Source: Escherichia phage Es2
Sequence record: OR515477.1
Reading direction: 5' to 3' (one strand)
DNA: 64,000 nucleotides
Shown here: positions 25,989-41,966 of the stretch, one piece after another
Numbering within the stretch: position 1 is the stretch's first letter
Layout of the letters: each line of letters opens with the position of its first letter
Translations under genes and position numbers: made by a program
The notes under the pieces: model-generated
Seen by the model: only the letters and a program-made list of their open reading frames with translations
Databases searched by the model: none
What the model was told of the DNA's origin: nothing

Positions 25989-26159
25989 ATGAAATCAGTT
26001 GTAATTATTGGTGTTAACACTCGCGGTATTCGTACTACGAAAACTGTTAAAACTTCTAACGTTGCTGAAATCACTACGAACCCTAAAAAGTTTGATTTCG
26101 CCAAAGTCTCAGCAGTTATGACAGAGCAATCTTTTAACCAAGCATTGGGGATGAAATAA
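25989..26159 (+). CDS. hypothetical small protein
   Basis: 56 aa ORF (MKSVVIIGVNTRGIR...) with AGGAAG RBS after promoter 25929-25957; below track cutoff. Confidence 0.4.
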   Translation: MKSVVIIGVNTRGIRTTKTVKTSNVAEITTNPKKFDFAKVSAVMTEQSFNQALGMK

Positions 26160-26593
26160 TGGGTACGAATATGATTCGTGTGCTGCGAGAATTAATTGAA
26201 AAAGCTCGCAAACACGGTGATACTGTGTCAGTCAAGCACCTTAGTACGATTTTAGGTGACTTACAACGAATTGATAAAGATTGCGTATCTAGACTAGAGT
26301 TTACTAACTGGATTAAATCACAGTTCAAAGCAATTGAGAATACAATGACTTCTGCTGCAAAAGCAAATATCGAGTATACTCCAGATGCTGAATATCTCGA
26401 CTTGTTAGCAGGTCTAGAGTATGAATATGCTCTAGAGCAGTTAACTGAAGTTCAGATTCGTGAGTATTTTGCAGAACTGGTTAAATTAAACCCAGGTATT
26501 ACCAAAGCTCTATTAATGAAAACTATTAAGGCAGAATTTCCTGGACGTTATGACGGTAAAACAACTGCTTTGATTGCTAGTGAATTTTTCTAA
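26159..26593 (+). CDS. hypothetical protein
   Basis: 144 aa ORF, ATGA coupling. Confidence 0.5.
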   Translation: MGTNMIRVLRELIEKARKHGDTVSVKHLSTILGDLQRIDKDCVSRLEFTNWIKSQFKAIENTMTSAAKANIEYTPDAEYLDLLAGLEYEYALEQLTEVQIREYFAELVKLNPGITKALLMKTIKAEFPGRYDGKTTALIASEFF

Positions 26594-26601
26594 AAATTCA
26601 T

Positions 26602-26630
26602 TTGCTAAATGCTTATAAATTCTGTATAAT
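26602..26630 (+). promoter_or_regulatory. early-type sigma70 promoter heading the tRNA/ncRNA cluster
   Basis: AAAAATTCATTTGCTA, 17 bp, TGTATAAT. Confidence 0.6.
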
Positions 26631-26853
26631 ATATTCATAAATTAGGGAACAGCGAGCCGATTACGCTGAGTGCAGAATCCCAACCGGAGCGCATTGAATA
26701 GAGTCGGTGGGTTAGTTGTAAAACTAGTACACAGGGGGCGGCAATCCCGGTTAGTGGCTAGAACGTGTAAAATGAGGCGTCTGAAACCTCTCCCTTAAAC
26801 TCTTCTCTAATTTATAAATAGTGGGGTGTGGAAATCACTTATGTAGTAACACT

Positions 26854-26925
26854 GCCGTCCTAGTATAATTGGTATTATCAAGCCGTAACTGGTGGAAGAT
26901 GTAGGTTCGAATCCTACGGTCGGTA
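26854..26925 (+). tRNA. tRNA-like (isotype undetermined)
   Basis: T-arm GTAGG-TTCGAAT-CCTAC and acceptor GCCGTCC/GGTCGGT, but no clean anticodon arm. Confidence 0.35.
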
Positions 26926-27427
26926 AGAACTGGATAACTGATGCTTTTAACGTAAAAGCTTCCGAGGTTAGTTGCGCACTGCCTAAACCACGCGGTAGTT
27001 GGTTCCAGACTAACCAACCAGTCTGCTGAATAGTTTTATTACGATTTAACTATGTCCAGGCTAAAGAAGAACTTTAGAAAGTATTCTAGGATAGTGAAGT
27101 TCTTTCTCCATATCGGAGTAGTTTTTCAAGCTATCCATAAAGTGGGAAATGCTGGCATGAGAGATGCCACTAATGGTGCACAATAGCACAGGTAATTCGC
27201 GATAACTCCTGTTGAGTAGCAGCAAAAGGCGGGAAGTCATGACCCCAAGCCTAACCGAGTCCTCAATATACCGCAGGACATAACCACTAAGTCACCCTGA
27301 CTTAAACTGGAAAATAATAGACGTTACTGTATTTTGTCTTGAAATACTTAATGAGTGAGACTTATGACTCTCCCGGTATCGTCTGTATTTTTAAGAGTTT
27401 TTACGAGAGTTCTTAAAAATACTTAAA

Positions 27428-27499
27428 CGGGGTGTAGTCTAAGGGAGAGGCAGGAGTCTTCTAAATTCCTTTATGCAGGTTCGAATCCTGTCACCTCGG
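27428..27499 (+). tRNA. tRNA-Arg (anticodon TCT)
   Basis: Acceptor CGGGGTG/CACCTCG, anticodon loop CTTCTAA, T-arm GCAGG-TTCGAAT-CCTGT, CCA encoded. Confidence 0.7.
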
Positions 27500-27536
27500 C
27501 CAATTTTATTAACTGTAGCTAAAACAAAGGAAATAT

Positions 27537-33602: not shown

Positions 33603-33723
33603 ATTCTAGCGTGGTTGATGGGGAAACCAGCTTGGCTAGGGCAGAAGCTCGTTCGATTCGAGTGAAAGAATGGTTCTCGTAAGTCCGCACAAGTGATAGC
33701 AGGTTCGAGTCCTGTCTAGAATG
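33603..33723 (+). ncRNA. long tRNA-like element (~121 nt)
   Basis: Perfect 7 bp acceptor pairing ATTCTAG/CTAGAAT, T-arm GCAGG-TTCGAGT-CCTGT, internal second T-arm-like GCTCG-TTCGATT-CGAGT; too long for a canonical tRNA. Confidence 0.4.
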
Positions 33724-33731
33724 ACACTATA

Positions 33732-33859
33732 AAGTTTACTTATTATGTAGGTTCCGATAGATCGGCGGGTCTATTCTGGCATTTAAGAGAAGTCTCGCAA
33801 ACTTCTTTGTCAGCCGTGGGGTTGGTAGCCTCCAGGTGGCCTACACAATAAGTAAATTT
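33732..33859 (+). ncRNA. long hairpin element (20 bp stem enclosing ~88 nt)
   Basis: AAGTTTACTTATTATGTAGG (33732-33751) pairs with CCTACACAATAAGTAAATTT (33840-33859); sub-hairpins inside; no ORF. Confidence 0.4.
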
Positions 33860-33872
33860 ATTAAAAATTCAT

Positions 33873-33901
33873 TTGCTATTTTTCTTAATTATCTGTATAA
33901 T
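33873..33901 (+). promoter_or_regulatory. early-type sigma70 promoter
   Basis: AAAAATTCATTTGCTA, 17 bp, TGTATAAT. Confidence 0.6.
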
Positions 33902-33933
33902 ATATTTTATAAAGTGAAGAGAAGGAAAGCAAA

Positions 33934-34092
33934 ATGAAACACAAGATAGCCCAAGTTTTTATGGCATTATGGTGTATGCCAATAGCTATAACAGCATTTA
34001 ATCTAGATACTTTTACTATAGAAGAAAAATGTATCGGATTAGTTAGCGGCTTTAGTATGCTTGGCTTATCTTTGTTGTGGTTGAAGAAATAA
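33934..34092 (+). CDS. small hydrophobic protein
   Basis: 52 aa ORF MKHKIAQVFMALWCMPIAITAF... after promoter 33873-33901; below track cutoff. Confidence 0.4.
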   Translation: MKHKIAQVFMALWCMPIAITAFNLDTFTIEEKCIGLVSGFSMLGLSLLWLKK

Positions 34093-34096
34093 TATT

Positions 34097-34171
34097 CTCC
34101 GTGTAGCTCAGTTTGGCCAGAGCGTTTCGTTTGGGGCGATAGGGTCGGGGGTTCAAATCCTCCCACGGAGA
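34097..34171 (+). tRNA. tRNA-Pro (anticodon TGG)
   Basis: Acceptor CTCCGTG/CACGGAG, D-arm GCTC..GAGC, anticodon loop TTTGGGG, T-arm GGGGG-TTCAAAT-CCTCC, CCA encoded. Confidence 0.7.
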
Positions 34172-34180
34172 CCAAACAAT

Positions 34181-34255
34181 TGCGGGTTAGATCTCTGGTA
34201 GAGATCGCTAGTCTCATAAGCTAGAAAGAGGTAGGTTCGATTCCTGCACCCGCTT
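34181..34255 (+). tRNA. tRNA-Met/Ile2 (anticodon CAT)
   Basis: Acceptor TGCGGGT/ACCCGCT (1-72 mismatch), anticodon stem-loop CTAGT-CTCATAA-GCTAG, T-arm GTAGG-TTCGATT-CCTGC, CCA encoded. Confidence 0.65.
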
Positions 34256-34278
34256 CCATTTTAATAGAGGATTTCGAA

Positions 34279-34446
34279 ATGAAAGTATTTCGATTAGTAG
34301 TAAGTGACAAACGGTTAGGTAAGAATACATCAAAATCCCTACTCGCTCATTACGGTAAAAATTGGGATGAAGTAATGGCAGAGTTTAGTACTAATCACCC
34401 TTACTTGAAAGTTCACTCTATTAAAGAAGTATATAATGGTTACTAA
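34279..34446 (+). CDS. hypothetical small protein
   Basis: 55 aa ORF with GAGGA RBS between tRNAs; below track cutoff. Confidence 0.4.
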   Translation: MKVFRLVVSDKRLGKNTSKSLLAHYGKNWDEVMAEFSTNHPYLKVHSIKEVYNGY

Positions 34447-34447
34447 T

Positions 34448-34523
34448 AGATCGCTAGCTCAATAGGTTTAGTAGCATCCGACTTTTAATCGGAAGGTTCT
34501 GGGTTCGAGTCCCAGGCGATCTA
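34448..34523 (+). tRNA. tRNA-Lys (anticodon TTT)
   Basis: Acceptor AGATCGC/GCGATCT, anticodon stem-loop TCCGA-CTTTTAA-TCGGA, T-arm CTGGG-TTCGAGT-CCCAG, CCA encoded. Confidence 0.75.
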
Positions 34524-34530
34524 CCAAATT

Positions 34531-34601
34531 GCTCGGTTAGTTTAATGGGAGAACCCCGTCTTTACACGGCGGTTGAGATAGTTCAATTCTATCACCGAGT
34601 A
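34531..34601 (+). tRNA. tRNA-Val (anticodon TAC)
   Basis: Acceptor GCTCGGT/ACCGAGT, anticodon loop TTTACAC, T-arm GATAG-TTCAATT-CTATC, CCA encoded. Confidence 0.7.
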
Positions 34602-34623
34602 CCAATTAACTCAAAATAAGGAA

Positions 34624-34983
34624 TTGCAAATGCAATTATCAAGCAAGATTCAAGGTTATTTCGGTCATGTAACAATGGAGTTCGCTATCTCTAAAGGTTG
34701 GGACTTCGAACAAGATTTAGCTGAGTTCTACAAAGATATTGATCTGAACGTACCGTACATGGGACTTTCTACTGGTCAGGAGATCACAGAAGCCGATGTA
34801 TTCAAGGCAAGTCAAGGTGAGGTAACACCTAGTTTTGCCGAGTTCTGGTTAGGCATTACGTTAAAAGAAGATGCACCAGATAGTGGTGTACTAATGTCTA
34901 GTATGCACTCTGGAAGTTCCGATTACCTTTTCATTAGCGATGTTAAGGAAATACAAGAAGTCTGCAAAAATGTACTTGCTTGA
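34624..34983 (+). CDS. hypothetical protein
   Basis: 119 aa ORF with AAGGA RBS. Confidence 0.5.
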   Translation: MQMQLSSKIQGYFGHVTMEFAISKGWDFEQDLAEFYKDIDLNVPYMGLSTGQEITEADVFKASQGEVTPSFAEFWLGITLKEDAPDSGVLMSSMHSGSSDYLFISDVKEIQEVCKNVLA

Positions 34984-35004
34984 TGCTTAATTTCTTGTTA
35001 TAAT
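34976..35004 (+). promoter_or_regulatory. early-type sigma70 promoter
   Basis: TTGCTT, 17 bp, TATAAT; followed by hairpin GATGAGGA-GAAA-TCCTCATC. Confidence 0.55.
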
Positions 35005-35242
35005 ATTTATATAAATTGATGAGGAGAAATCCTCATCATAGTTCACTAAGGTATTAGCTCGACCTAGGACTGGCTGCCAAAAAGCACGATCCCTACGATT
35101 CGGGAAAAGTTCTAGATTGGTCCACTAGATTCAGCGGCAACTGAATAGTGTATTGGGTTTGCGAGATGACGTAGTTCCTTCCGCTCTAAGCGAAGGTGCT
35201 GTAGTTACGCCGAGCTAATAGCCTTAGTAAACTAAAGAATTT

Positions 35243-35318
35243 GGGGAATGGGTCTGCATGGAGTGGACACCTCGCTTGCACCGAGGACATCAGAACGGTT
35301 CGATTCCGTTATTCTCCA
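35243..35318 (+). tRNA. tRNA-Ala (anticodon TGC)
   Basis: Acceptor GGGGAAT/ATTCTCC, anticodon stem-loop CCTCG-CTTGCAC-CGAGG, T-arm AACGG-TTCGATT-CCGTT, CCA encoded. Confidence 0.7.
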
Positions 35319-35326
35319 CCAAATAC

Positions 35327-35400
35327 GCGTGATTGATGGAATGGGCATACATACCGTCCTTAGAAGTCGGGTTTTGAGGGTTCGAATCCCTTGTCACGCA
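35327..35400 (+). tRNA. tRNA with anticodon TAG (Leu-decoding; class I architecture)
   Basis: Acceptor GCGTGAT/GTCACGC, anticodon loop CTTAGAA, short variable arm, T-arm GAGGG-TTCGAAT-CCCTT, CCA encoded. Confidence 0.55.
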
Positions 35401-35515
35401 CCAAATTTGATGGTCAGAGTAAATTAAACCTACTATCTCGGTTGAGCTGTTTTAATGGGTTCGAATCCCAGCGGGGCGTAACTGCCTGGTGTGATAGAGG
35501 CATCATCTTATTATT

Positions 35516-35603
35516 GGAAGAGCAAATCGAATTGGCGACGAAAACCGCTTGGAAAGTGGCTGACTGGTAAAACGGCTTGAGAGTTCAAATCTCTCCTCTT
35601 CCG
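35516..35603 (+). tRNA. tRNA-Ser (anticodon GGA)
   Basis: Acceptor GGAAGAG/CTCTTCC, anticodon loop TTGGAAA, 18 nt variable arm, T-arm GAGAG-TTCAAAT-CTCTC, CCA encoded. Confidence 0.7.
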
Positions 35604-35618
35604 CCAAACAATTTATAT

Positions 35619-35710
35619 GGTAGGTCAATCCAATGGCTGGCGCTGGACTCCGACTTGAAATCGGTTGATCGTAGTGATACGGTGTAAGGGTTCGATCCCC
35701 TTACCTACCT
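35619..35710 (+). tRNA. tRNA-Ser (anticodon TGA)
   Basis: Acceptor GGTAGGT/ACCTACC, anticodon loop CTTGAAA, 20 nt variable arm, T-arm AAGGG-TTCGATC-CCCTT, CCA encoded. Confidence 0.7.
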
Positions 35711-35716
35711 CCAAAT

Positions 35717-35850
35717 CTTGAAGTATGCCGGAATCGGTAGACGGGGCTGCCTAAAAGGTTTATAGGGAACATCCACTCCCTGCAACATACCTCATAAAGC
35801 GGCTGAGATAAATGGTCTATCTCGTGAAGGTTCAAGTCCTTCTGCTTCTT
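35717..35850 (+). ncRNA. long tRNA-like element (~134 nt)
   Basis: Acceptor-like pairing TGAAGTA/TGCTTCT (6 of 7), T-arm GAAGG-TTCAAGT-CCTTC, internal D-arm-like hairpins; no CCA, no ORF. Confidence 0.35.
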
Positions 35851-35964
35851 GATACATCTATGGCTCAAAGTGTAACGGTGCTATTTGATGCTCTTGGTAA
35901 GACTTCCCCGACATGCGTTCGGGAGTAAGCTGCTAAGACTAGAGTAGAAGAGTTTCTGAGAGCC

Positions 35965-36084
35965 GCCACAATTGAAAATTCGTACTCGTCTTGAGCTGCG
36001 CGCAATAGGAGATAACTTGATTAGTATTCTAGAACATGCTAATTGAGGAAGGTTTCGCTAACCCTGCGAGTTTTCAATTGTGGC
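35965..36084 (+). ncRNA. long hairpin element (18 bp stem enclosing ~85 nt) abutting tRNA-His
   Basis: GCCACAATTGAAAATTCG (35965-35982) pairs with CGAGTTTTCAATTGTGGC (36067-36084); the 3' arm overlaps the tRNA-His acceptor. Confidence 0.4.
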
Positions 36085-36153
36085 TATATCATAATTGGTT
36101 AATGATCCTGATTGTGAATCAGGCCTATGTGGATTCGAATTCCACTAGCCACC
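36080..36153 (+). tRNA. tRNA-His (anticodon GTG)
   Basis: Acceptor GTGGCTA/TAGCCAC, D-arm TCAT..ATGA, anticodon stem-loop CCTGA-TTGTGAA-TCAGG, T-arm GTGGA-TTCGAAT-TCCAC, CCA encoded. Confidence 0.7.
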
Positions 36154-36180
36154 CCAAATTAACTTAAATAGGAAATAAAT

Positions 36181-36387
36181 ATGGCTGATTTCTGCAAACA
36201 ATGCTCCATTGATATGTGGGGTAAAGATACTGGTGATCTTTCTGGTTTGATTACAGAAGCTGAAGTTAAAGAAGGCTACGGTGCTGCTGTGATCTGCGAA
36301 GGATGCGGAGTTATTCGAGTAGATCATGAAGGCAAACGTTTAGAAGATCCAAAAAGTATTAAGAAGAAGGTTAGCCAAGTAGGTTAA
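36181..36387 (+). CDS. small zinc-ribbon protein
   Basis: CKQCS...CEGCG motifs, 68 aa; 3' end overlaps tRNA-Gln. Confidence 0.5.
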   Translation: MADFCKQCSIDMWGKDTGDLSGLITEAEVKEGYGAAVICEGCGVIRVDHEGKRLEDPKSIKKKVSQVG

Positions 36388-36437
36388 GGCTGGGGTCTCT
36401 GAAATCCTGATCAGTGGTTCGAATCCACTACCTTCTG
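36365..36437 (+). tRNA. tRNA-Gln (anticodon CTG)
   Basis: Acceptor AGAAGGT/ACCTTCT, anticodon loop CTCTGAA, T-arm AGTGG-TTCGAAT-CCACT, CCA encoded. Confidence 0.6.
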
Positions 36438-36446
36438 CCAAACAAT

Positions 36447-36521
36447 TGGGGATTAGCTTAGCTTGGCCTAAAGCTTCGGCCTTTGAAGTCGAGATCATTG
36501 GTTCAAATCCAATATCCCCTG
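36447..36521 (+). tRNA. tRNA-Gln (anticodon TTG)
   Basis: Acceptor TGGGGAT/ATCCCCT, D-arm GCTT..AAGC, anticodon stem-loop TCGGC-CTTTGAA-GTCGA, T-arm ATTGG-TTCAAAT-CCAAT, CCA encoded. Confidence 0.65.
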
Positions 36522-36534
36522 CCAGCTAAATTAA

Positions 36535-36607
36535 TGCGTGATTAGTTCAGTGGCTAGAATAACTGGCTTCCAACCAGTAGACACGAGTTCGACTCTCGTA
36601 TCCCGCA
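36535..36607 (+). tRNA. tRNA-Gly (anticodon TCC)
   Basis: Acceptor GCGTGAT/ATCCCGC, anticodon stem-loop ACTGG-CTTCCAA-CCAGT, T-arm ACGAG-TTCGACT-CTCGT, CCA encoded. Confidence 0.7.
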
Positions 36608-36624
36608 CCAAATAAGGAAACGTT

Positions 36625-36846
36625 ATGCACGTTTTTGAGTTTCGTAATAAAAATACTGATAAGCGAGTTATCATTATTGGAGAAACATACCGAGCATATG
36701 AACAAACTGACGGCTCTGTTATCTTGAATGATGAGAAAGGAGGTTTTAGCTTTTATCCAGAAGAACCTTATGAAGAGTTTCGTACTAAGTTTCTTTTACC
36801 AGACTGGCTAGCAGTAGCCGAGCAACGAGAATCCGAAGATGGCTGA
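36625..36846 (+). CDS. hypothetical protein
   Basis: 73 aa ORF, AAGGAAAC RBS. Confidence 0.5.
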   Translation: MHVFEFRNKNTDKRVIIIGETYRAYEQTDGSVILNDEKGGFSFYPEEPYEEFRTKFLLPDWLAVAEQRESEDG

Positions 36847-37001
36847 TAACCTAAAATTAAGGGTCGACAAACAAAAGAAATACATTGAGGTTGAATTAGG
36901 CGAAGAACGATTAAAGCTAACTTTCGAGTTTCTTCAGCAGTTGGCTATGACAGTTATGACTGATAAGTCTCCTGTTATTGAAAAAGAAATCCCGTTGAAA
37001 T
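36840..37001 (+). CDS. hypothetical small protein
   Basis: About 53 aa ORF (MADNLKLRVDKQKKYIEV...) overlapping the previous stop; coordinates +/-2. Confidence 0.35.
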
Positions 37002-37012
37002 AACGGGATCAT

Positions 37013-37085
37013 CGCTCCTAAAGCATTGCTGGCGATGCAGTTGCCTTGTAAGCATCTGAACCGGGTTCGATTCCTGGTGGGAGCA
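37013..37085 (+). tRNA. tRNA-Thr (anticodon TGT)
   Basis: Acceptor GCTCCTA/TGGGAGC, D-arm GCAT..ATGC, anticodon loop CTTGTAA, T-arm CCGGG-TTCGATT-CCTGG, CCA encoded. Confidence 0.65.
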
Positions 37086-37103
37086 CCAAATTTAAAAATT
37101 CAT

Positions 37104-37132
37104 TTGCTTTCTCTCTTATTTATTGTTATAAT
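37104..37132 (+). promoter_or_regulatory. early-type sigma70 promoter
   Basis: AAAAATTCATTTGCTT, 17 bp, TATAAT. Confidence 0.6.
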
Positions 37133-37162
37133 ATTCATATAAATTAATGAGAGGGAAGCCAA

Positions 37163-37456
37163 ATGAAACGTTATCTTTCTGTTGTGTTCCAAACTGGTGG
37201 TCAACGCTATACTTACGAATTTCCTGGCTCTTGGAAGATCAAAGAAGGTGATCAAGTAGTAGTGTTAACACCGCGTGAGGGTTTTAAGGTAGTAACGGTT
37301 AAGCAAGTATTTCCAAAAGAGCGTGAACCAGCTAAAGGCATTCGCTATAAGATGATTCATGGTGTAGTTCGTCAAGTACCACGAGCGGAAGTCGAAATCA
37401 AAGTAGATAAAGATGGTAAACTTAAATATACCTCTTGCTTAGACGAGTTGCTATAA
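37163..37456 (+). CDS. hypothetical protein
   Basis: 97 aa ORF after promoter 37104-37132. Confidence 0.5.
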   Translation: MKRYLSVVFQTGGQRYTYEFPGSWKIKEGDQVVVLTPREGFKVVTVKQVFPKEREPAKGIRYKMIHGVVRQVPRAEVEIKVDKDGKLKYTSCLDELL

Positions 37457-37662
37457 TGAGGATTACTTTTACAGAAAAGATCATGAGTAATGGTGTTATG
37501 ATCATTACCGCATGGGATGGTAATCAGTGGTGTAGTGTTTCAGGTATTAAGCCTGAAGAACAAACACTAGATAATATCTCAAAGATTAAGCGAAGAATGA
37601 CAGAACGTGCACGACTTCCAGGTGCACCTAGAAATGGCAAACGTTCTGCTGCAAAATGTTAA
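37456..37662 (+). CDS. hypothetical protein
   Basis: 68 aa ORF starting at overlapping TAATG. Confidence 0.45.
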   Translation: MRITFTEKIMSNGVMIITAWDGNQWCSVSGIKPEEQTLDNISKIKRRMTERARLPGAPRNGKRSAAKC

Positions 37663-37663
37663 T

Positions 37664-37737
37664 GCTTCGGTAGCTTAGCGATCTAAAGCACTCGGCTGAT
37701 AACCGAGAGATCGGGGGTTTAAATCCCTCCCGGAGTA
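37664..37737 (+). tRNA. tRNA-Ile (anticodon GAT)
   Basis: Acceptor GCTTCGG/CCGGAGT, D-arm GCTT..AAGC, anticodon stem-loop CTCGG-CTGATAA-CCGAG, unusual T-loop TTTAAAT, CCA encoded. Confidence 0.7.
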
Positions 37738-37836
37738 CCAAATTTAGGAATTAAGACTATGCGTCCAGGAAAGTTTAAAAAAGCTAATTGGTCTAAAGAG
37801 TATAAAGAATACTTACTTAGTCTAGTAAAACATAAT

Positions 37837-37909
37837 AGTTAGTTGGCAGAGTGGTTATGCACCTCCTTCATACGGAGCGACTACAGTGGTTCAAATCCAC
37901 TACTAACTA
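37837..37909 (+). tRNA. tRNA-Met/Ile2 (anticodon CAT)
   Basis: Acceptor AGTTAGT/ACTAACT, anticodon loop TTCATAC, T-arm AGTGG-TTCAAAT-CCACT, CCA encoded. Confidence 0.65.
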
Positions 37910-37949
37910 CCATTAAAAGAGCTAGAGATAGCTAACTTTAGGAGCAGCT

Positions 37950-38144
37950 ATGTTAACAATTAAAATAATGTCAGCCAAGAATGGGGAACAGATTCATACA
38001 GGCAAAAGTGTAAGCTTTAATCCTAGAAATAAAAGACTGGCTATAGTTGGAGTAGACCAAGCCATCTTTTTAAAAGAAGATGAAGTAGCATATGTCATGA
38101 ACCAAACTGGTAAGACAGTTTCCGTATACTATGGAAAAGTATAA
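37950..38144 (+). CDS. hypothetical protein
   Basis: 64 aa ORF, AGGAG RBS. Confidence 0.45.
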   Translation: MLTIKIMSAKNGEQIHTGKSVSFNPRNKRLAIVGVDQAIFLKEDEVAYVMNQTGKTVSVYYGKV

Positions 38145-38186
38145 AGAATAAATAGCTGAGCCAAATTCTAACATCGGGGAGATCTA

Positions 38187-38555
38187 ATGAAAGCATATCA
38201 AAACCTTAAATCTGGCGTAATTAATATTGTTCATAATAATCAGATCATTCAGCTATATTCCGATAATGGTGAACTTAAACAGAAAGTTCTAGTTGAAGAT
38301 CTAGAAGGTATCACACCTCACTTTGACCCTGAGGCCTTTCGCATTGTAGATGTGGAAGTGGTTCCTCAAATCGAAGGTGGTCAGCACCTAAATGTCAATG
38401 TATTAAGCCGTGATCAGCTTTTGGATGCGCAGAAACATCCTGAAAAATACCCTCAATTAACTATCCGTGTTTCAGGGTACGCTGTTCGATTTAATGCACT
38501 GACTCGTGAACAACAGAACGACGTTATTAGTCGTACATTTACTCAGGCGATGTAA
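38187..38555 (+). CDS. grcA: autonomous glycyl-radical cofactor-like protein (GrcA/YfiD-like)
   Basis: C-terminal [11 protein letters not shown]...[37 protein letters not shown] closely matches the GrcA/PFL glycyl-radical domain as recalled from memory (RVSGY motif). Confidence 0.7.
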
Positions 38556-38636
38556 TGGGGTTTGGGTACGATTTCTCCCAGCTACGCAAGGTAGTCGAGC
38601 AAACTCCGTTTATCTCCCAAGTTTTAGGAGAAATGT

Positions 38637-38951
38637 GTGGATCGAGCATTAAGACGTCATCACAGGCAACGTGTAAAGAACAACCGCAAGAAGTACTGGA
38701 CAGTCTTTCCACATGAAGAAAGCCCTAAGCGGTTAGGTATTATCACTACTACTCCTTGCATCTGTTCTTGTTGGATGTGTGGGAACCCTCGCAAGTACTA
38801 TAAGAATAGTAAAGCAGGCATGAAAACCTCGGAGATCAGGAAAATGGAAGCGATGATTATGGGCATCTCAAATGATGAATTTGATGGCTTTGTAGGATTC
38901 GGAGAAGGAATCAGCTCAGGCTGTTTAGAAGATGAACGCCCCGACCTGTAA
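38637..38951 (+). CDS. hypothetical Cys-rich basic protein
   Basis: 104 aa ORF, CICSCWMC motif; start codon uncertain. Confidence 0.4.
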   Translation: MDRALRRHHRQRVKNNRKKYWTVFPHEESPKRLGIITTTPCICSCWMCGNPRKYYKNSKAGMKTSEIRKMEAMIMGISNDEFDGFVGFGEGISSGCLEDERPDL

Positions 38952-38962
38952 TTAATAACAAA

Positions 38963-38997
38963 CCCCAGCTATTGAATAAGTAGTCTGGGGTTTTTCT
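38963..38997 (+). terminator. rho-independent terminator
   Basis: CCCCAG...CTGGGG hairpin followed by TTTTTCT. Confidence 0.6.
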
Positions 38998-39072
38998 GTA
39001 TAAAGGTACATAATATATGTATAATAAAATTCATCCACATTAGGTTAATTTAAAAGACTTAATGGAGGTAAT

Positions 39073-39420
39073 ATGAGCCGTACTTATCGTAGACAATCTG
39101 GTGATCAGTGGTGGAAGTCTAAAGAACAATTCTCTCAAGAATATTCTTTCCTCAAAGAAAATGGCTACTGGATTCGTGTTATTTATGCCAAATCCTGGGA
39201 CGACATCAAAAAAGAAATGAAGGAAGCAACCATTCGTAATGAGAAAAAGGATGGTTATAACTGGAATTCCATTAGTAAGAATGTTAAGTGGCATTCTAAT
39301 AAAATGGTTCGTCAAGGGAATCGTCAAGAACTCCACCGCGTGATGAAAGATCCAGAAAATTACGACTATAATCGCGACCATGACATGCGTAAGCGTGGAT
39401 TATGGTGGTGCTATGACTAA
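39073..39420 (+). CDS. hypothetical protein
   Basis: 115 aa, Trp/Lys-rich, GGAGG RBS. Confidence 0.5.
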   Translation: MSRTYRRQSGDQWWKSKEQFSQEYSFLKENGYWIRVIYAKSWDDIKKEMKEATIRNEKKDGYNWNSISKNVKWHSNKMVRQGNRQELHRVMKDPENYDYNRDHDMRKRGLWWCYD

Positions 39421-39437
39421 ATTCTGAAATAATTCAT

Positions 39438-39466
39438 TTGCTAAACCTCTCTTTTCTTGCTATAAT
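39438..39466 (+). promoter_or_regulatory. early-type sigma70 promoter
   Basis: TTGCTA, 17 bp, TATAAT. Confidence 0.6.
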
Positions 39467-39496
39467 ATATTTATAAATTGATAAGAGAGGTTTGAA

Positions 39497-39778
39497 ATGA
39501 AAAATCGCCTAGACTGTGCCATTCATGTTCTTGAACATGATGTTACGGGAACCTGTATGTCTTACCACGAAGCAGGTCGTTTAATTAAAGAACGCGTGGC
39601 AGATGTGTGCGGATTGAAGATTACTGCTGAGGAAGCTGATGATCTTTTAGGTCAAGCACTGGAGAAAACCGAAATGTTCCTCTGCGATTCTTGTTCTTGG
39701 TGGTGTGAAGCTCACGAACGTTCTTTCAACGATTATGATGTATGTCGTGATTGTAGTGGGGAGGATAAAGATGAATAA
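39497..39778 (+). CDS. hypothetical Cys-rich protein
   Basis: 93 aa ORF after promoter 39438-39466; CDSCSWWC...CRDC motifs. Confidence 0.5.
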   Translation: MKNRLDCAIHVLEHDVTGTCMSYHEAGRLIKERVADVCGLKITAEEADDLLGQALEKTEMFLCDSCSWWCEAHERSFNDYDVCRDCSGEDKDE

Positions 39779-40067
39779 GTTTATTATTGCACTGATGATC
39801 TCCGCAGTTAGTTTCGGTTCTCTGGCGTCTACCAAAGTTTCTATGAAAAATGGTAATGTTAAAGTCCAACAGAACGGTATTATTACTGAGTATGGTAAAG
39901 TTCGTGATGTTAAAGAACGTAATGGTAAGGTAGAAATCTATACTAATAAAAACTTCTCTACTCCAGCCGTTACTATTAGCAAACGCGGTGAAATAACCAC
40001 TCAACGTACTAATAGCTCCAGTTCTTTTACTTGTCGTTATGATTGCGACTTTGAAGGGGAAGAGTAA
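39771..40067 (+). CDS. secreted small protein (signal peptide)
   Basis: MNKFIIALMISAVSFGSLAS signal-like N-terminus; ATGAATAA overlap with upstream stop. Confidence 0.5.
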   Translation: MNKFIIALMISAVSFGSLASTKVSMKNGNVKVQQNGIITEYGKVRDVKERNGKVEIYTNKNFSTPAVTISKRGEITTQRTNSSSSFTCRYDCDFEGEE

Positions 40068-40068
40068 C

Positions 40069-40377
40069 ATGGAAAAGAACGTGAAAAAACTAAACATCAA
40101 CAGCACAGTGCAGATTCCAGCAACTAAGGATGTTTTAACATTCCTACGGAGTGAAAACGCTCAGTTTTGGCATGATCATGTTGTAAAGAACGGTAGTACT
40201 CCAGATGTAGTTTACTTTGCTAAAAAACGTATCGAAGAATATAAAGATCCAGAGATTAAAGATGGGATGATAACTATGCAATTGTGGGTAGCCATGAATA
40301 CGTTTGGACCTACTATGAGTCTAGGAGTTACTCCACTGTTTACTAATATTCTAATTAATGAAAAGGATCTGAAATGA
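40069..40377 (+). CDS. hypothetical protein
   Basis: 102 aa ORF starting MEKNVKKLN with GAAGGGGAAGAG RBS. Confidence 0.5.
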   Translation: MEKNVKKLNINSTVQIPATKDVLTFLRSENAQFWHDHVVKNGSTPDVVYFAKKRIEEYKDPEIKDGMITMQLWVAMNTFGPTMSLGVTPLFTNILINEKDLK

Positions 40378-40658
40378 TTATCTCTCCATTTGCTCTTTGG
40401 TTCGTCATCGGATCTATAGTAGCTATTTACAGCTTGGTTGATGATCTGTATATTTCTAAGAATAAAGATGTAATATTATACATTATACATAAAACTCGAC
40501 CGTTAGATCTGCCTCCTCTTGATGATAAAACATTACTGAGATGTGCTAGATCTATGATATTTATTGTGGATATTCTTCTAGGCCCAACATCTGTGTTTTT
40601 CTTTTATAGAAAGACTCGTAATATGAAAAAATTTAAAGCTGAAATGCAGAATACCTAA
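40374..40658 (+). CDS. small membrane protein
   Basis: 94 aa with two hydrophobic segments; ATGA coupling. Confidence 0.5.
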   Translation: MIISPFALWFVIGSIVAIYSLVDDLYISKNKDVILYIIHKTRPLDLPPLDDKTLLRCARSMIFIVDILLGPTSVFFFYRKTRNMKKFKAEMQNT

Positions 40659-40768
40659 AGAACTCGCGTAGGACCGAGTTGCGTCACCTGCAACTGTTAC
40701 GGATAAGGGAGTCGTGCCCCTTAGTGCGGTAAGTGGTGAGGTGGCTGCTAGCCCTAACTGGAGATAAT

Positions 40769-41113
40769 ATGACTATATTACTAATTCTTGTTACAACTTG
40801 GTTTTTAATCGGTGCTGGATATGCGATAGCTATTATTAGACATTTGGATGAACATTCTGCTGAATGGTTTGTTAAGTATCTACGTATTGATGGTCAAGAA
40901 CAGAAGTTTAAAGACGAAAAGCAGAAAAAAGCAGTAAATAATATGACAGCCAAAGAATGCTTGTTCTACATGCGTATTGTAGGGTTCTTTGGACTATTAG
41001 TTGCTGGCCCAATTGGTTCTACCATTGCCCCATATAAAGAAACAGTTGCTGACATCAAATTGTGGAGAAATGCAGGGGTACTGCACAAAGCTAGAAAAAC
41101 TAATATTACATAA
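40769..41113 (+). CDS. membrane protein
   Basis: Start MTILLILVTTWFLIGAGYAIAII with GGAGA RBS; hydrophobic segments; terminator follows. Confidence 0.5.
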   Translation: MTILLILVTTWFLIGAGYAIAIIRHLDEHSAEWFVKYLRIDGQEQKFKDEKQKKAVNNMTAKECLFYMRIVGFFGLLVAGPIGSTIAPYKETVADIKLWRNAGVLHKARKTNIT

Positions 41114-41158
41114 GATTGACACTAAGTCAGCTTACTAGCAAAAGCAAATAATGACAAA

Positions 41159-41193
41159 GCCCAGCCTGCACTTTTGCGACTGGGCTATTTTTA
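41159..41193 (+). terminator. rho-independent terminator
   Basis: GCCCAG...CTGGGC hairpin followed by TATTTTTAT. Confidence 0.6.
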
Positions 41194-41207
41194 TAATAAA
41201 ATTTTAG

Positions 41208-41236
41208 TTGCTTAGATGCCCAAACTTTTGTATAAT
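41208..41236 (+). promoter_or_regulatory. early-type sigma70 promoter
   Basis: TTGCTT, 17 bp, TGTATAAT. Confidence 0.6.
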
Positions 41237-41267
41237 ATGTTTATAGATTGAGGCAAGAGGATTAAAT

Positions 41268-41966
41268 ATGAGGATTATTTCTAAGTTCGCCGATGTGTAT
41301 GATTTGCAGAACAGTTTGTTTGACCCAGATCGTGTGTGGGAACGTAAAACTGAGGAGTTACTGGTTAAAGTAACCGATGATGCAGAAAAGAACATTGTGC
41401 ATACTCGCCAGGTATTTCGTGATGGTTCGCTATCTTTCCGTGGTGATTTCGAATACTTTGTAAACCCACTATTTGTTGCAGGTGAAGTTTACTGGTTACA
41501 CGAGCTGTACTGCTGGCATCCAGCATTTAGCTTCAAAACGTTCAACCTCGACACTATGTTCGATAAAATGGAAGAGATGGGATTGCATGCTCGCTCTTAC
41601 TTAATGGATAAGAGTCGCGGAGATGTTCGTGAAACAATGCGTGATTTGCTCGCTGAAGCAAAACCTAAAGCAGAACGTATCTTATCCGAACTGCGTGTAC
41701 CGATTGCATATGTGAAAGGTATTAAGAAGAACGATAACGATGATGTTCGTAACTTCGTGATTCAGACTAACATTCGTTTCCATCAGTCAGGTATTCCGTG
41801 GCAGGAAATTGAAAGTAACTTATACCGTTTACACCAAGTTCTCGAACAGTATATCTTCGGTGTACTAGGAACTGGTGAGCCTGATATGATTAAAGTATCA
41901 GATAAAGACAGGTTAGCAGCGCATGGATTTGATACAAAAACTTCTTTCAGGAATATGGCAAGGTAA
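41268..41966 (+). CDS. hypothetical protein
   Basis: 232 aa ORF after promoter 41208-41236. Confidence 0.55.
   Translation: MRIISKFADVYDLQNSLFDPDRVWERKTEELLVKVTDDAEKNIVHTRQVFRDGSLSFRGDFEYFVNPLFVAGEVYWLHELYCWHPAFSFKTFNLDTMFDKMEEMGLHARSYLMDKSRGDVRETMRDLLAEAKPKAERILSELRVPIAYVKGIKKNDNDDVRNFVIQTNIRFHQSGIPWQEIESNLYRLHQVLEQYIFGVLGTGEPDMIKVSDKDRLAAHGFDTKTSFRNMAR

What the first reader, a model, noticed from the sequence alone, without database searches (positions are those of the whole stretch)
26640..27427. ~790 nt ORF-free stretch after an early promoter, containing a tRNA-like fragment and hairpins
The region following promoter 26602-26630 has no credible ORF. It holds a T-arm and acceptor of a tRNA-like element (26854-26925) without a clean anticodon arm, an 8 bp hairpin (TAGTTGGTT-CCAGACT-AACCAACCA near 26986-27010) and a 13 bp hairpin just before tRNA-Arg (27389-27421). 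It is likely a non-coding RNA locus or decayed tRNA genes.
Basis: seen in the sequence. Interest (0 to 1): 0.5.

Follow-up and report, generated by a model that had tools for sequence, protein, structure and literature searches.

The report
RNAX: large structured RNA of T5-like phages
The ORF-free stretch is the gene for RNAX, a roughly 785-base non-coding RNA already annotated in phage T5 relatives as a "stable RNA with unknown functions"; comparison across T5-like phages shows a conserved multi-domain fold with a built-in tRNA-shaped domain, not decayed tRNA junk.

Summary
There is a sigma-70-type promoter at 26602-26630, then about 790 nt with no conserved ORF. A tRNA-like element lies at 26854-26925 (Rfam tRNA 35.5 bits; ARAGORN makes no call). 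A 17-bp hairpin abuts tRNA-Arg.

The stretch is 98-99% identical to a feature that GenBank records of phage 5, BF23, T5 and DT571/2 annotate as rnaX, "stable RNA with unknown functions". Homologues occur at the same locus in Tequintavirus, Epseptimavirus, Klebsiella Sugarlandvirus, Erwinia KEY, Pantoea AAS21, Pectobacterium DU_PP_V and Serratia Kamaji.

A 14-sequence alignment supports 19 helices. In these, 91.7% of cells are paired, against 35-42% when partners are slid. 47 pairs changed on both sides, against 23±3 in shuffles and 6-13 when slid.

The tRNA-like domain keeps its acceptor, D and T arms and its elbow, but has no conserved anticodon arm. A 12-bp covarying helix encloses it, so it is an integral domain, not a decayed gene.

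No Rfam family other than tRNA matches. GOLLD and ROOL are the closest analogues by context, but RNAX is not a member of either. Function is unknown, and the T5 st0 deletion removes the locus. The locus is already annotated; the fold and its family-wide conservation are, as far as I could find, undescribed.

The parts
26602..26630 (+). Early sigma-70-type promoter (TTGCTA-17-TATAAT, TG-extended -10); equals 'promoter P16-17' of the T5 and phage 5 records
   Evidence: 10 of 12 matches; annotation; conserved in all clades
26643..27427 (+). RNAX transcript as annotated in phage 5 and BF23 (785 nt), running from just after the promoter to the base before tRNA-Arg
   Evidence: L001 70-854 maps to window 26643-27427 at 99.0% identity. 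T5 and DT571/2 rnaX
26642..26810 (+). 5' domain. Closing helix UUAGGGAA (26642-26649) with UUCUCUAA (26803-26810). Inner helix GCCGAUU (26656-26662) with AGUCGGU (26702-26708). The interior 26650-26797 is deleted in T5 and DT571/2 with the closing helix kept, and is replaced by an HNH endonuclease ORF in some Epseptimaviruses
   Evidence: 96% of cells paired; pair 26658-26706 is C-G, U-A or A-U in different clades. T5 sequence. Deletion. HNH ORF
26834..26942 (+). 12-bp helix formed by the two flanks of the tRNA-like element (26834-26847 with 26929-26942). It makes the tRNA-like element the tip of a long arm
   Evidence: helix 8: 98.2% paired, 10 of 12 pairs changed on both sides. Also found by alifold and by the single-sequence MFE
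26854..26925 (+). tRNA-like domain with acceptor stem, D arm (GG kept) and T arm (UUCGAAU loop). In place of an anticodon arm there is a 3-4 bp stem with a GUAACU hexaloop that varies between clades. No CCA is encoded
   Evidence: 35.5 bits. (no ARAGORN call). (compensatory changes; variants). (relatives called Ser(ACU), SeC(UCA) or Leu(UAG)). helices 9 and 10
26943..26959 (+). Conserved 5-bp hairpin GCUUU/AAAGC directly 3' of the flank helix
   Evidence: helix 11: 100% paired, 3 of 5 pairs changed on both sides (GCUUA/UAAGC, GCUUC/GAAGC, GGUUC/GAACC, GAUUA/UAAUC, GCGUA/UACGC)
26965..27110 (+). Variable central segment.
   Evidence: poorly conserved, with indels. (hairpin z -0.74)
27141..27290 (+). 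Conserved 3' core. It holds the GUGGGAA island, hairpin 27154-27158/27164-27168, hairpin 27176-27179/27186-27189, hairpin 27209-27214/27220-27225, the near-universal GRAGUCAUGACC island (palindrome GUCAUGAC at 27236-27243) and the AUAACCAC island at 27280-27287
   Evidence: invariant columns. helices 14-17 (helix 15 has 5 of 5 pairs changed on both sides)
26821..27287 (+). Long-range pairing of GUGG islands (26821-26828, 27142-27145) with CCAC islands (27019-27026, 27278-27287). The exact partner assignment is ambiguous
   Evidence: helices 6 and 14 (94-96% paired). helices 4 and 5 (95-96% paired). Co-changes in one sequence: G-C to A-U and U-A to C-G
27385..27422 (+). 17-bp A/U-rich terminal hairpin, 5 nt before tRNA-Arg
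   Evidence: z -3.65. helix 19 (93% paired, 6 pairs changed on both sides). 93% identical in Pectobacterium phage DU_PP_V. Also precedes tRNA-Arg in Felixounavirus 'dune'
27428..27502 (+). tRNA-Arg(UCU). Its 5' maturation (RNase P) would create the RNAX 3' end
   Evidence: 49.3 bits. The RNAX end is annotated at the tRNA's first base. RNase P cleavage is inferred from general tRNA biology

Best explanation
The stretch is the gene for RNAX, a long (about 785 nt here, about 0.6-1.3 kb in relatives) non-coding RNA of T5-like phages (Demerecviridae).

Shown:
- It lies behind a strong early-type promoter, has no conserved reading frame, and is conserved at one genomic position across several genera.
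- It folds on the + strand into a multi-domain structure supported by compensatory substitutions.
- Its tRNA-like element is an integral domain at the tip of a 12-bp helix. The acceptor/T-arm stack and the D-loop/T-loop elbow are kept. The anticodon arm is free to vary.

Inferred:
- The primary transcript continues into tRNA-Arg and the band-7 gene. RNase P cleavage at tRNA-Arg releases RNAX.
- The base-paired 5' end and the 3'-terminal 17-bp hairpin then protect it from decay, which would explain the annotation as a 'stable RNA'.
- It acts in trans as an accessory, non-essential structured RNA during early infection. The most likely mode is presenting a tRNA-shaped elbow on a large scaffold to something that recognises tRNA shape. 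Candidates are host tRNA-handling enzymes, the ribosome, or the phage YqeY-like protein encoded just upstream. This sits in a genome region otherwise devoted to tRNAs and counter-defence.

Identity as a structured ncRNA is near certain. The functional part is a hypothesis.
For: Identity: 99% identity over the full length to annotated rnaX, 'stable RNA with unknown functions'.

Non-coding: no ORF above 60 aa. The small ORFs are broken in relatives.

Conservation: 539 phage records match. The same architecture is found in Epseptimavirus, Sugarlandvirus, KEY, AAS21, DU_PP_V and Kamaji.

Structure:
- 107 pairs are 91.7% paired, against 35-42% when partners are slid.
- 47 pairs changed on both sides, against 23.1±3.1 in shuffles (0 of 500 reach the observed value) and 6-13 when slid.
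- A structure predicted from the Tequintavirus, Epseptimavirus and Klebsiella sequences alone is 70% canonical in four held-out distant phages, against 34-44% when slid.
- The single-sequence MFE reproduces the flank helix, cloverleaf and hairpin.

Strand: 171 G.U cells against 48 A.C cells.

Independent gene: in Serratia phage Kamaji the homologue has its own promoter and a terminator-like stem plus U23 tract, with no tRNA-Arg after it.

Modularity typical of large structured RNAs:
- T5 deletes the 5' domain interior but keeps its closing helix.
- Eps7-type phages replace the tRNA-like domain with a 46-nt hairpin on the same helix.
- Extra 200-300 nt domains are inserted in Epseptimavirus and Klebsiella phages.

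tRNA-like domain under selection: acceptor pair 5 is A-U (T5), U-A (BF23) or U.U (window). Pair 6 is C-G or U-A. T-stem pairs change A-U to G-C.

Context: a PHROG 1460 'tRNA amidotransferase'/YqeY-like gene lies upstream in four clades. The T5 tRNA region acts as an anti-defence island.
Against: - Thermodynamic stability is unremarkable: z -1.54 for the whole RNA and z -0.39 for the core.
- The consensus structure was derived from the same alignment on which pairs were counted. This circularity is only partly offset by the hold-out test.
- Long-range helices join invariant islands and their topology is ambiguous.
- I found no experimental data on size, ends, abundance or processing beyond the GenBank notes. 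No paper on RNAX is in the searchable library.
- The tRNA-like domain is dispensable in some natural variants, and the 5' domain in T5.
- The whole locus lies inside the segment deleted in the T5 st0 mutant, so any function is conditional.
- Nothing tested here identifies a binding partner.
Confidence: 0.6

Rival explanations
1. RNAX is a passive leader or spacer of the tRNA-Arg/band-7 operon. Its structure exists only to guide processing (RNase P, RNase III or RNase E) and to stabilise or time the downstream products. It has no trans-acting role.
For: No + strand terminator lies between the promoter and 28508, so RNAX, tRNA-Arg and the band-7 ORF are co-transcribed. The terminal hairpin plus tRNA-Arg module also occurs in Felixounavirus 'dune' without RNAX, which ties the hairpin to the tRNA.
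Against: About 800 nt with many invariant islands and more than 15 covarying helices is far more than a processing signal needs. In Kamaji the RNA appears to be a separate unit with its own promoter, a terminator-like end and no tRNA after it. In KEY, AAS21 and the Klebsiella phages, ORFs separate it from tRNA-Arg. GenBank calls it a stable RNA.
Confidence: 0.15
2. RNAX is a decoy or sponge against tRNA-targeting host defences (anticodon nucleases such as PrrC, RloC, retron PtuAB or PARIS AriB). It offers a tRNA-shaped bait.
For: It has a tRNA-like domain with an intact elbow. It is located at the edge of the T5 tRNA block, which acts as an anti-defence island. It is dispensable in the laboratory (T5 st0), as counter-defence genes usually are.
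Against: The known nucleases recognise specific anticodon loops, and this is exactly the part that is not conserved here. Some phages replaced the tRNA-like domain altogether but kept the rest. A decoy would not need about 700 nt of additional conserved structure.
Confidence: 0.12
3. RNAX is a functional analogue of GOLLD and ROOL: a large RNA that self-assembles into an RNA-only multimer or cage.
For: It shares their context. It is phage-encoded, lies at a tRNA island and has a tRNA(-like) unit inside the RNA. It is about 0.8-1.3 kb, with a conserved 3' part and a more variable, deletable 5' part. A near-universal palindrome, GUCAUGAC (27236-27243), could mediate symmetric RNA-RNA contact.
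Against: No Rfam GOLLD or ROOL match was found, even at E-values of 1 to 10, in seven divergent homologues. Oligomerisation is untested. The palindrome is imperfect in Kamaji.
Confidence: 0.1
4. The region is decayed tRNA genes or decayed mobile-element debris with no selected function.
For: There is one degenerate tRNA-like element. Homing-endonuclease ORFs insert in the locus in relatives. There are large indels between lineages.
Against: Only one tRNA-like match exists in the whole stretch, in any clade. Compensatory changes maintain the helices. Islands are invariant across subfamilies. Indels respect helix boundaries.
Confidence: 0.03

Closest known systems
RNAX (rnaX) of phages T5, BF23, 'phage 5' and DT571/2, as annotated in GenBank AY734508, NC_042564, AJ604531 and KM979355
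   Same: It is the same locus with the same boundaries (promoter P16-17 to the first base of tRNA-Arg). Identity is 98-99% to the phage 5 and BF23 versions and about 93% to T5, which carries a 5' domain deletion.
   Different: Nothing differs in kind; this window's copy is the long form. The records give only 'stable RNA with unknown functions', with no structure, family or function.
GOLLD RNA (large ornate phage/prophage RNA)
   Same: It is phage-encoded and lies at tRNA islands, and tRNAs are sometimes embedded in the RNA. It exceeds 800 nt, has a conserved 3' region and a variable 5' region, and its function is unknown (PMC12286853; PMC5737381). RNAX shares all of these contextual traits.
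   Different: There is no sequence or structure match to the Rfam model. RNAX's embedded unit is a tRNA mimic closed by a helix, not a functional tRNA in a linker. The hosts are Enterobacterales phages. Multimerisation is untested.
ROOL RNA
   Same: It is a large (about 580 nt), multi-junction RNA of phages and prophages near tRNA islands. It is abundant but non-essential, and its function is unknown.
   Different: There is no Rfam match. RNAX has an embedded tRNA-like domain, which ROOL is not described as having.
tRNA (Rfam RF00005) and tRNA-like structural mimics
   Same: It has an acceptor stem, a D arm with GG, and a T arm with a canonical T-loop. It scores above the tRNA gathering threshold (35.5 bits here, 33-50 bits in relatives).
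   Different: It has no canonical anticodon stem-loop and no conserved anticodon. Programs call it Ser, SeC, Leu, Pro or nothing. No CCA is encoded. Its 5' and 3' flanks are base-paired into a 12-bp helix.
Small stable RNAs in the phage T4 tRNA cluster (recalled from memory; not tested here)
   Same: They are non-tRNA stable RNAs co-transcribed with phage tRNA genes, released by tRNA-processing enzymes, and of unknown function.
   Different: As I recall, they are much smaller (about 120-140 nt). No sequence comparison was made here.

Membership tests
RNAX (GenBank rnaX of T5-like phages) | Collinear, near-identical sequence between promoter P16-17 and tRNA-Arg | tested here: met
   100% coverage at 99.0% identity to AJ604531 rnaX and 98.0% to BF23 rnaX, with the same flanking features
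RNAX (GenBank rnaX of T5-like phages) | Accumulates as a stable RNA in infected cells | not testable with these tools
   This rests only on the depositors' note. No paper was found in the library
tRNA (functional) | Acceptor stem, D arm and T arm with a canonical T-loop | tested here: met
   Rfam tRNA 35.5 bits. The stems covary. D-loop GG and UUCGAAU are kept
tRNA (functional) | 5-bp anticodon stem with a 7-nt loop and an anticodon conserved among orthologues | tested here: not met
   The model skips the arm. ARAGORN makes no call. The arm is 3-4 bp with a GUAACU hexaloop here, and has other shapes and lengths elsewhere. Relatives are called Ser, SeC, Leu or Pro
tRNA (functional) | Free single-stranded 5' leader and 3' trailer, or CCA, allowing excision | tested here: not met
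   No CCA is encoded. The flanks form a 12-bp helix that is 98% paired with 10 covarying pairs
GOLLD RNA | Match to the Rfam covariance model | tested here: not met
   There is no hit at E up to 10 in the window region, or at E up to 1 in six divergent homologues
GOLLD RNA | Phage-encoded, next to a tRNA island, with a tRNA unit within the RNA, and a conserved 3' part with a variable 5' part | tested here: met
   23 tRNA genes follow. There is an embedded tRNA-like domain. The 5' domain is deleted or replaced in relatives while the 3' core is kept. The defining features are taken from PMC12286853
GOLLD RNA | Homo-oligomeric nanocage | not testable with these tools
   This needs native gels or cryo-EM
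ROOL RNA | Match to the Rfam covariance model | tested here: not met
   no hit
tmRNA | tRNA-like domain plus a tag reading frame, detected by ARAGORN or Rfam | tested here: not met
   ARAGORN found no tmRNA. Rfam found none
Protein-coding gene | A reading frame kept open in relatives | tested here: not met
   All ORFs of 42-60 aa acquire stops or frameshifts in homologues

The most novel reading that the evidence does not exclude
RNAX is a third, independent class of giant 'ornate' phage RNA alongside GOLLD and ROOL. It would self-associate through its near-universal palindromic GUCAUGAC element into an RNA-only assembly. That assembly would display tRNA-shaped arms and act on host tRNA-recognising machinery or on tRNA-directed immunity. 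Because it sits in the genetically tractable E. coli phage T5, the function of this whole kind of RNA would become directly testable.
Probability: 0.12. Interest if true: 0.85.

Novelty: new member of a known kind. Interest (0 to 1): 0.55.

Why it matters
Large, intricately folded bacterial and phage RNAs of unknown function (GOLLD, ROOL, OLE, raiA) are rare and are a long-standing puzzle. GOLLD and ROOL sit in phages next to tRNA islands, yet their function is still unknown.

RNAX has been listed in T5 records for about twenty years as a "stable RNA with unknown functions". It is absent from Rfam, and I found no structural or comparative description of it.

This analysis shows that it is a conserved, covariation-supported RNA of 0.6-1.3 kb with an integral tRNA mimic, present in hundreds of T5-like phages. 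That gives the field a candidate of the same kind in a classical E. coli phage. Natural domain-deletion variants exist (T5, Eps7 type), and so does a viable whole-locus deletion (T5 st0), so genetics, probing and cryo-EM are straightforward.

It also warns annotators that the 'tRNA-OTHER', 'tRNA-Sec', 'tRNA-Pro' and 'hypothetical protein' calls in this stretch are artefacts.

Tried and rejected
- Rfam at permissive thresholds, on the window region and on six divergent homologues, gave only tRNA hits. There was no GOLLD, ROOL, tmRNA, Y-RNA-like, intron or riboswitch match.
- Coding potential was rejected. The ORFs are short and are broken in relatives.
- Whole-RNA MFE z-scores were uninformative.
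- Literature searches for RNAX and T5 stable RNAs found nothing. PubMed 29512629 (T5 tRNA-region deletion mutants) is not held.
- Two attempts to reach more distant homologues added only close relatives, or nothing. One was an IMG/VR scan with the band-7 protein and the hairpin pattern. The other was a pattern scan of metagenome and genome contigs.
- Loci with about 75%-identical band-7 genes (L032-L040), Vibrio phage Skimmer and Felixounavirus 'dune' have no RNAX by nhmmer. 'dune' has only the terminal hairpin before tRNA-Arg.
- My first hand-drawn small hairpin, GUG-GAAAU-CAC at 26828-26838, was dropped in favour of the far better supported flank helix.
- A DNA-level role was judged unlikely, because G.U pairs outnumber A.C pairs 171 to 48 on the + strand.

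Full report
**What is in the window**

The window is from a Tequintavirus (T5-like phage). Region 26594-27427 is 99.3% identical to Escherichia phage OSYSP and Salmonella phage VSe12.

- A TTGCTA-17-TATAAT promoter lies at 26602-26630.
- tRNA-Arg(UCU) starts at 27428 and is the first of 23 tRNA genes.
- Between them no ORF exceeds 60 aa.
- The Rfam tRNA model hits 26854-26925 at 35.5 bits, with the anticodon arm skipped. ARAGORN does not call it.
- The hairpin before tRNA-Arg is 17 bp, at 27385-27401/27406-27422, z -3.65.
It lies in a poorly conserved segment.

**It is already annotated**

GenBank AJ604531 ('Bacteriophage 5 tRNA gene region') annotates exactly this stretch as misc_RNA rnaX, 'stable RNA with unknown functions'. 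The feature follows 'promoter P16-17' and ends at the first base of tRNA-Arg. L001 70-854 maps to window 26643-27427.

BF23, T5 (AY734508) and DT571/2 carry the same feature. Other records label parts of it 'tRNA-OTHER', 'tRNA-Sec', 'tRNA-Pro', 'tRNA-Ser' or 'hypothetical protein'.

No paper on RNAX is in the searchable library.

**It is not coding**

Each of the five ORFs of 42-60 aa in the window is interrupted by stops or frameshifts in homologues. For three of them this already happens within Tequintavirus.

**It is conserved far beyond T5**

A sensitive BLAST search finds 539 phage records. The same arrangement is present in:

- Epseptimavirus;
- Klebsiella Sugarlandvirus;
- Erwinia phage KEY and Pantoea phage AAS21;
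- Pectobacterium phage DU_PP_V, from another subfamily;
- Serratia phage Kamaji.

The arrangement is a promoter, about 200-500 nt, a tRNA-like element, about 500 nt and a terminal hairpin.

In Kamaji the RNA has its own promoter. It ends in a stem followed by a run of 23 U, with another promoter next and no tRNA-Arg. This argues that it is a gene in its own right.

Invariant or near-invariant islands are spread along the whole length. Examples are AGUGGGGUG...ACACUGCC, GAUAAC, GUGGGAA, GRAGUCAUGACC, AUAACCAC and ACUGGAA.

**It is a structured RNA**

I ran RNAalifold on a 14-sequence alignment (A1) and filtered the result to 19 helices with 107 pairs. Counting pairs on that alignment gave:

| Measure | Observed | Partners slid by 1-3 columns | 500 column shuffles |
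|---|---|---|---|
| Cells forming a standard pair | 91.7% | 35-42% | 83.9% |
| Pairs changed on both sides | 47 | 6-13 | 23.1±3.1 (0 of 500 reach 47) |
| Covariation score | 0.302 | about 0.07 | 0.166 |

The structure came from the same alignment, so I also ran a hold-out test. A structure predicted from the nine Tequintavirus, Epseptimavirus and Klebsiella sequences is 70% canonical in KEY, AAS21, DU_PP_V and Kamaji, against 34-44% when slid. It has 44 doubly changed cells, against 14-27.

G.U pairs (171 cells) far outnumber A.C pairs (48 cells), so the fold belongs to the + strand transcript.

Thermodynamic z-scores are unimpressive: -1.54 for the whole RNA and -0.39 for the core.

**Anatomy in window coordinates**

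1. *5' domain, 26642-26810.* It is closed by UUAGGGAA/UUCUCUAA. It contains GCCGAUU/AGUCGGU, whose pair 26658-26706 is C-G, U-A or A-U in different clades.
   - T5 and about a third of Tequintaviruses lack 26650-26797 but keep the closing helix as AUUAGAGA-loop-UCUCUAAU.
   - Some Epseptimaviruses carry an HNH endonuclease gene there instead.
2. *Flank helix, 26834-26847 with 26929-26942.* It has 12 bp, is 98% paired, and 10 pairs changed on both sides. It carries the tRNA-like domain at its tip. The single-sequence MFE finds the same fold.
3. *tRNA-like domain, 26854-26925.* Details are in the next section.
4. *Hairpin, 26943-26959.* It is 100% paired, with three doubly changed pairs.
5. *Variable central segment.*
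6. *Conserved 3' core, 27141-27290.* It has three covarying hairpins and the near-universal palindrome GUCAUGAC.
7. *Long-range GUGG/CCAC helices.* Their partner assignment is ambiguous, because both motifs occur twice.
8. *Terminal hairpin.*

Extra domains of 200-300 nt are inserted in Epseptimavirus and Klebsiella phages.

**The tRNA-like domain is selected, not decayed**

- Among nearly identical phages, acceptor pair 5 is A-U (T5), U-A (BF23) or U.U (this window). Pair 6 is C-G, U-A (DT571/2) or U.G.
- T-stem pairs switch from A-U to G-C in bastian and Kamaji.
- The D-loop GG and the T-loop UUCGAAU, which together form the elbow, are kept in nearly all clades.
- The 'anticodon arm' is a 3-4 bp stem with a GUAACU hexaloop here. 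In bastian the loop is CUUCACC, in DU_PP_V it is a triloop, and in Sealy the arm is a long hairpin.
- Programs accordingly call it Ser(ACU), SeC(UCA), Leu(UAG), Pro or nothing.
- No CCA is encoded. The bases flanking the acceptor stem pair with each other, which would disfavour excision.
- In Eps7, SH9, PMBT22 and L028 the whole domain is replaced by a 46-nt hairpin on the same helix. The domain is therefore peripheral and exchangeable.

**How it probably works**

The facts shown are the promoter, the non-coding nature, the conserved fold and the integral tRNA mimic.

The following steps are inferred:

- No + strand terminator lies before 28508. The transcript therefore runs into tRNA-Arg and the band-7 gene (Pfam PF01145).
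- RNase P cleavage at tRNA-Arg would give the annotated 3' end.
- The paired 5' end and the 3' hairpin would then protect the RNA, which fits the 'stable RNA' note.

AY734508 is exactly the 8,208-bp segment removed in the T5 st0 deletion (note). RNAX is therefore dispensable on laboratory hosts. The same is reported for ROOL and for the anti-defence genes of the T5 tRNA region.

My best guess is a trans-acting scaffold RNA that presents a tRNA elbow to a tRNA-shape reader. A gene of PHROG 1460 ('tRNA amidotransferase', YqeY-like) lies just upstream in Tequintavirus, Epseptimavirus, KEY/AAS21 and DU_PP_V. Its product is a candidate partner.

The rivals are a mere processing leader, an anticodon-nuclease decoy, a GOLLD/ROOL-like self-assembling RNA, and junk. 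Their evidence is weighed in the rival explanations section.

**Comparison with known families**

By context RNAX resembles GOLLD and ROOL. These are phage RNAs at tRNA islands. GOLLD sometimes contains tRNAs, and has a conserved 3' region and a variable 5' region.

RNAX fails the membership test for both. No Rfam model other than tRNA matches the window or six divergent homologues, even at E-values of 1 to 10. It is also not a functional tRNA, a tmRNA or a protein-coding gene.

**Verdict**

This is a real feature. The locus is already catalogued as RNAX but is unexplained. The new findings are its family-wide conservation, its covariation-supported multi-domain fold and the integral nature of its tRNA mimic. 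Interest is moderate to high for RNA and phage biologists.

Noticed in passing
window 26159-26593 (+); L093 896-1318; L054 796-1242: The 144-aa ORF just upstream of RNAX belongs to PHROG 1460, 'tRNA amidotransferase' (YqeY/GatB-tail-like label). It has no Pfam hit at E 0.01. The same family sits upstream of RNAX in Erwinia KEY and Pectobacterium DU_PP_V, and relatives annotate it as YqeY-like. This synteny makes it a possible protein partner of the tRNA-like RNA.
   Followed up: partly
L049 844-1326; L047 829-1326 and 1914-2423; L027 and L028 (169-aa ORF): In some Epseptimaviruses an HNH endonuclease gene (PF13392, E 1e-11) occupies the place of the RNAX 5' domain. A 169-aa ORF of no known family is inserted between RNAX and tRNA-Arg. 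The locus is a landing site for mobile ORFs, at domain boundaries.
   Followed up: partly
L004 (AY734508) 1-11 and the whole record: The T5 record is exactly the st0 deletion segment (wild-type coordinates 33684-41891, with a 10-bp recombination repeat). The viable T5 st0 mutant therefore lacks RNAX, tRNA-Arg and the neighbouring genes.
   Followed up: no
L095 1998-2114 (Escherichia phage dune, Felixounavirus): A hairpin homologous to the RNAX terminal hairpin sits 2 nt upstream of tRNA-Arg(UCU) in an unrelated phage family, with no RNAX upstream. The hairpin plus tRNA-Arg may be a horizontally shared processing module.
   Followed up: partly
window 27236-27243: The 8-nt palindrome GUCAUGAC lies in an island that is identical in 13 of 14 clade representatives (GGCAUGA in Kamaji). 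It is a candidate for symmetric RNA-RNA (kissing) contact or a protein site.
   Followed up: no
window 26821-26825, 27021-27026, 27142-27145, 27282-27287: There are two GUGG islands and two ACCAC islands. In DU_PP_V the first GUGG island reads ACGG and both ACCAC islands read ACCGU. This suggests either two helices or alternative pairings (a switch). The question is unresolved.
   Followed up: partly
window 26594-26644 versus other sites in relatives (e.g. L002 828-878, L014 5891-5940): The roughly 50-bp promoter block (AAATTCATTTGCTAAA...TGTATAAT...CATAAATTA) recurs at several places in the tRNA region at about 80-86% identity. It is a family of near-identical early promoters.
   Followed up: no
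window 25989-26159 (+): The 56-aa ORF two genes upstream of RNAX matches Pfam DUF7616 over its full length (E 5e-33). Its function is unknown.
   Followed up: no
L088 8493-8599; L052 1984-2068; L090: A Tequintavirus-like metagenome contig and the Klebsiella phages carry a longer version of the tRNA-like domain. It has an extra hairpin, GGAGAUUAUAUCUCC in one and GGGGAGCUAUCCCC in the other, which differ by compensatory changes.
   Followed up: no
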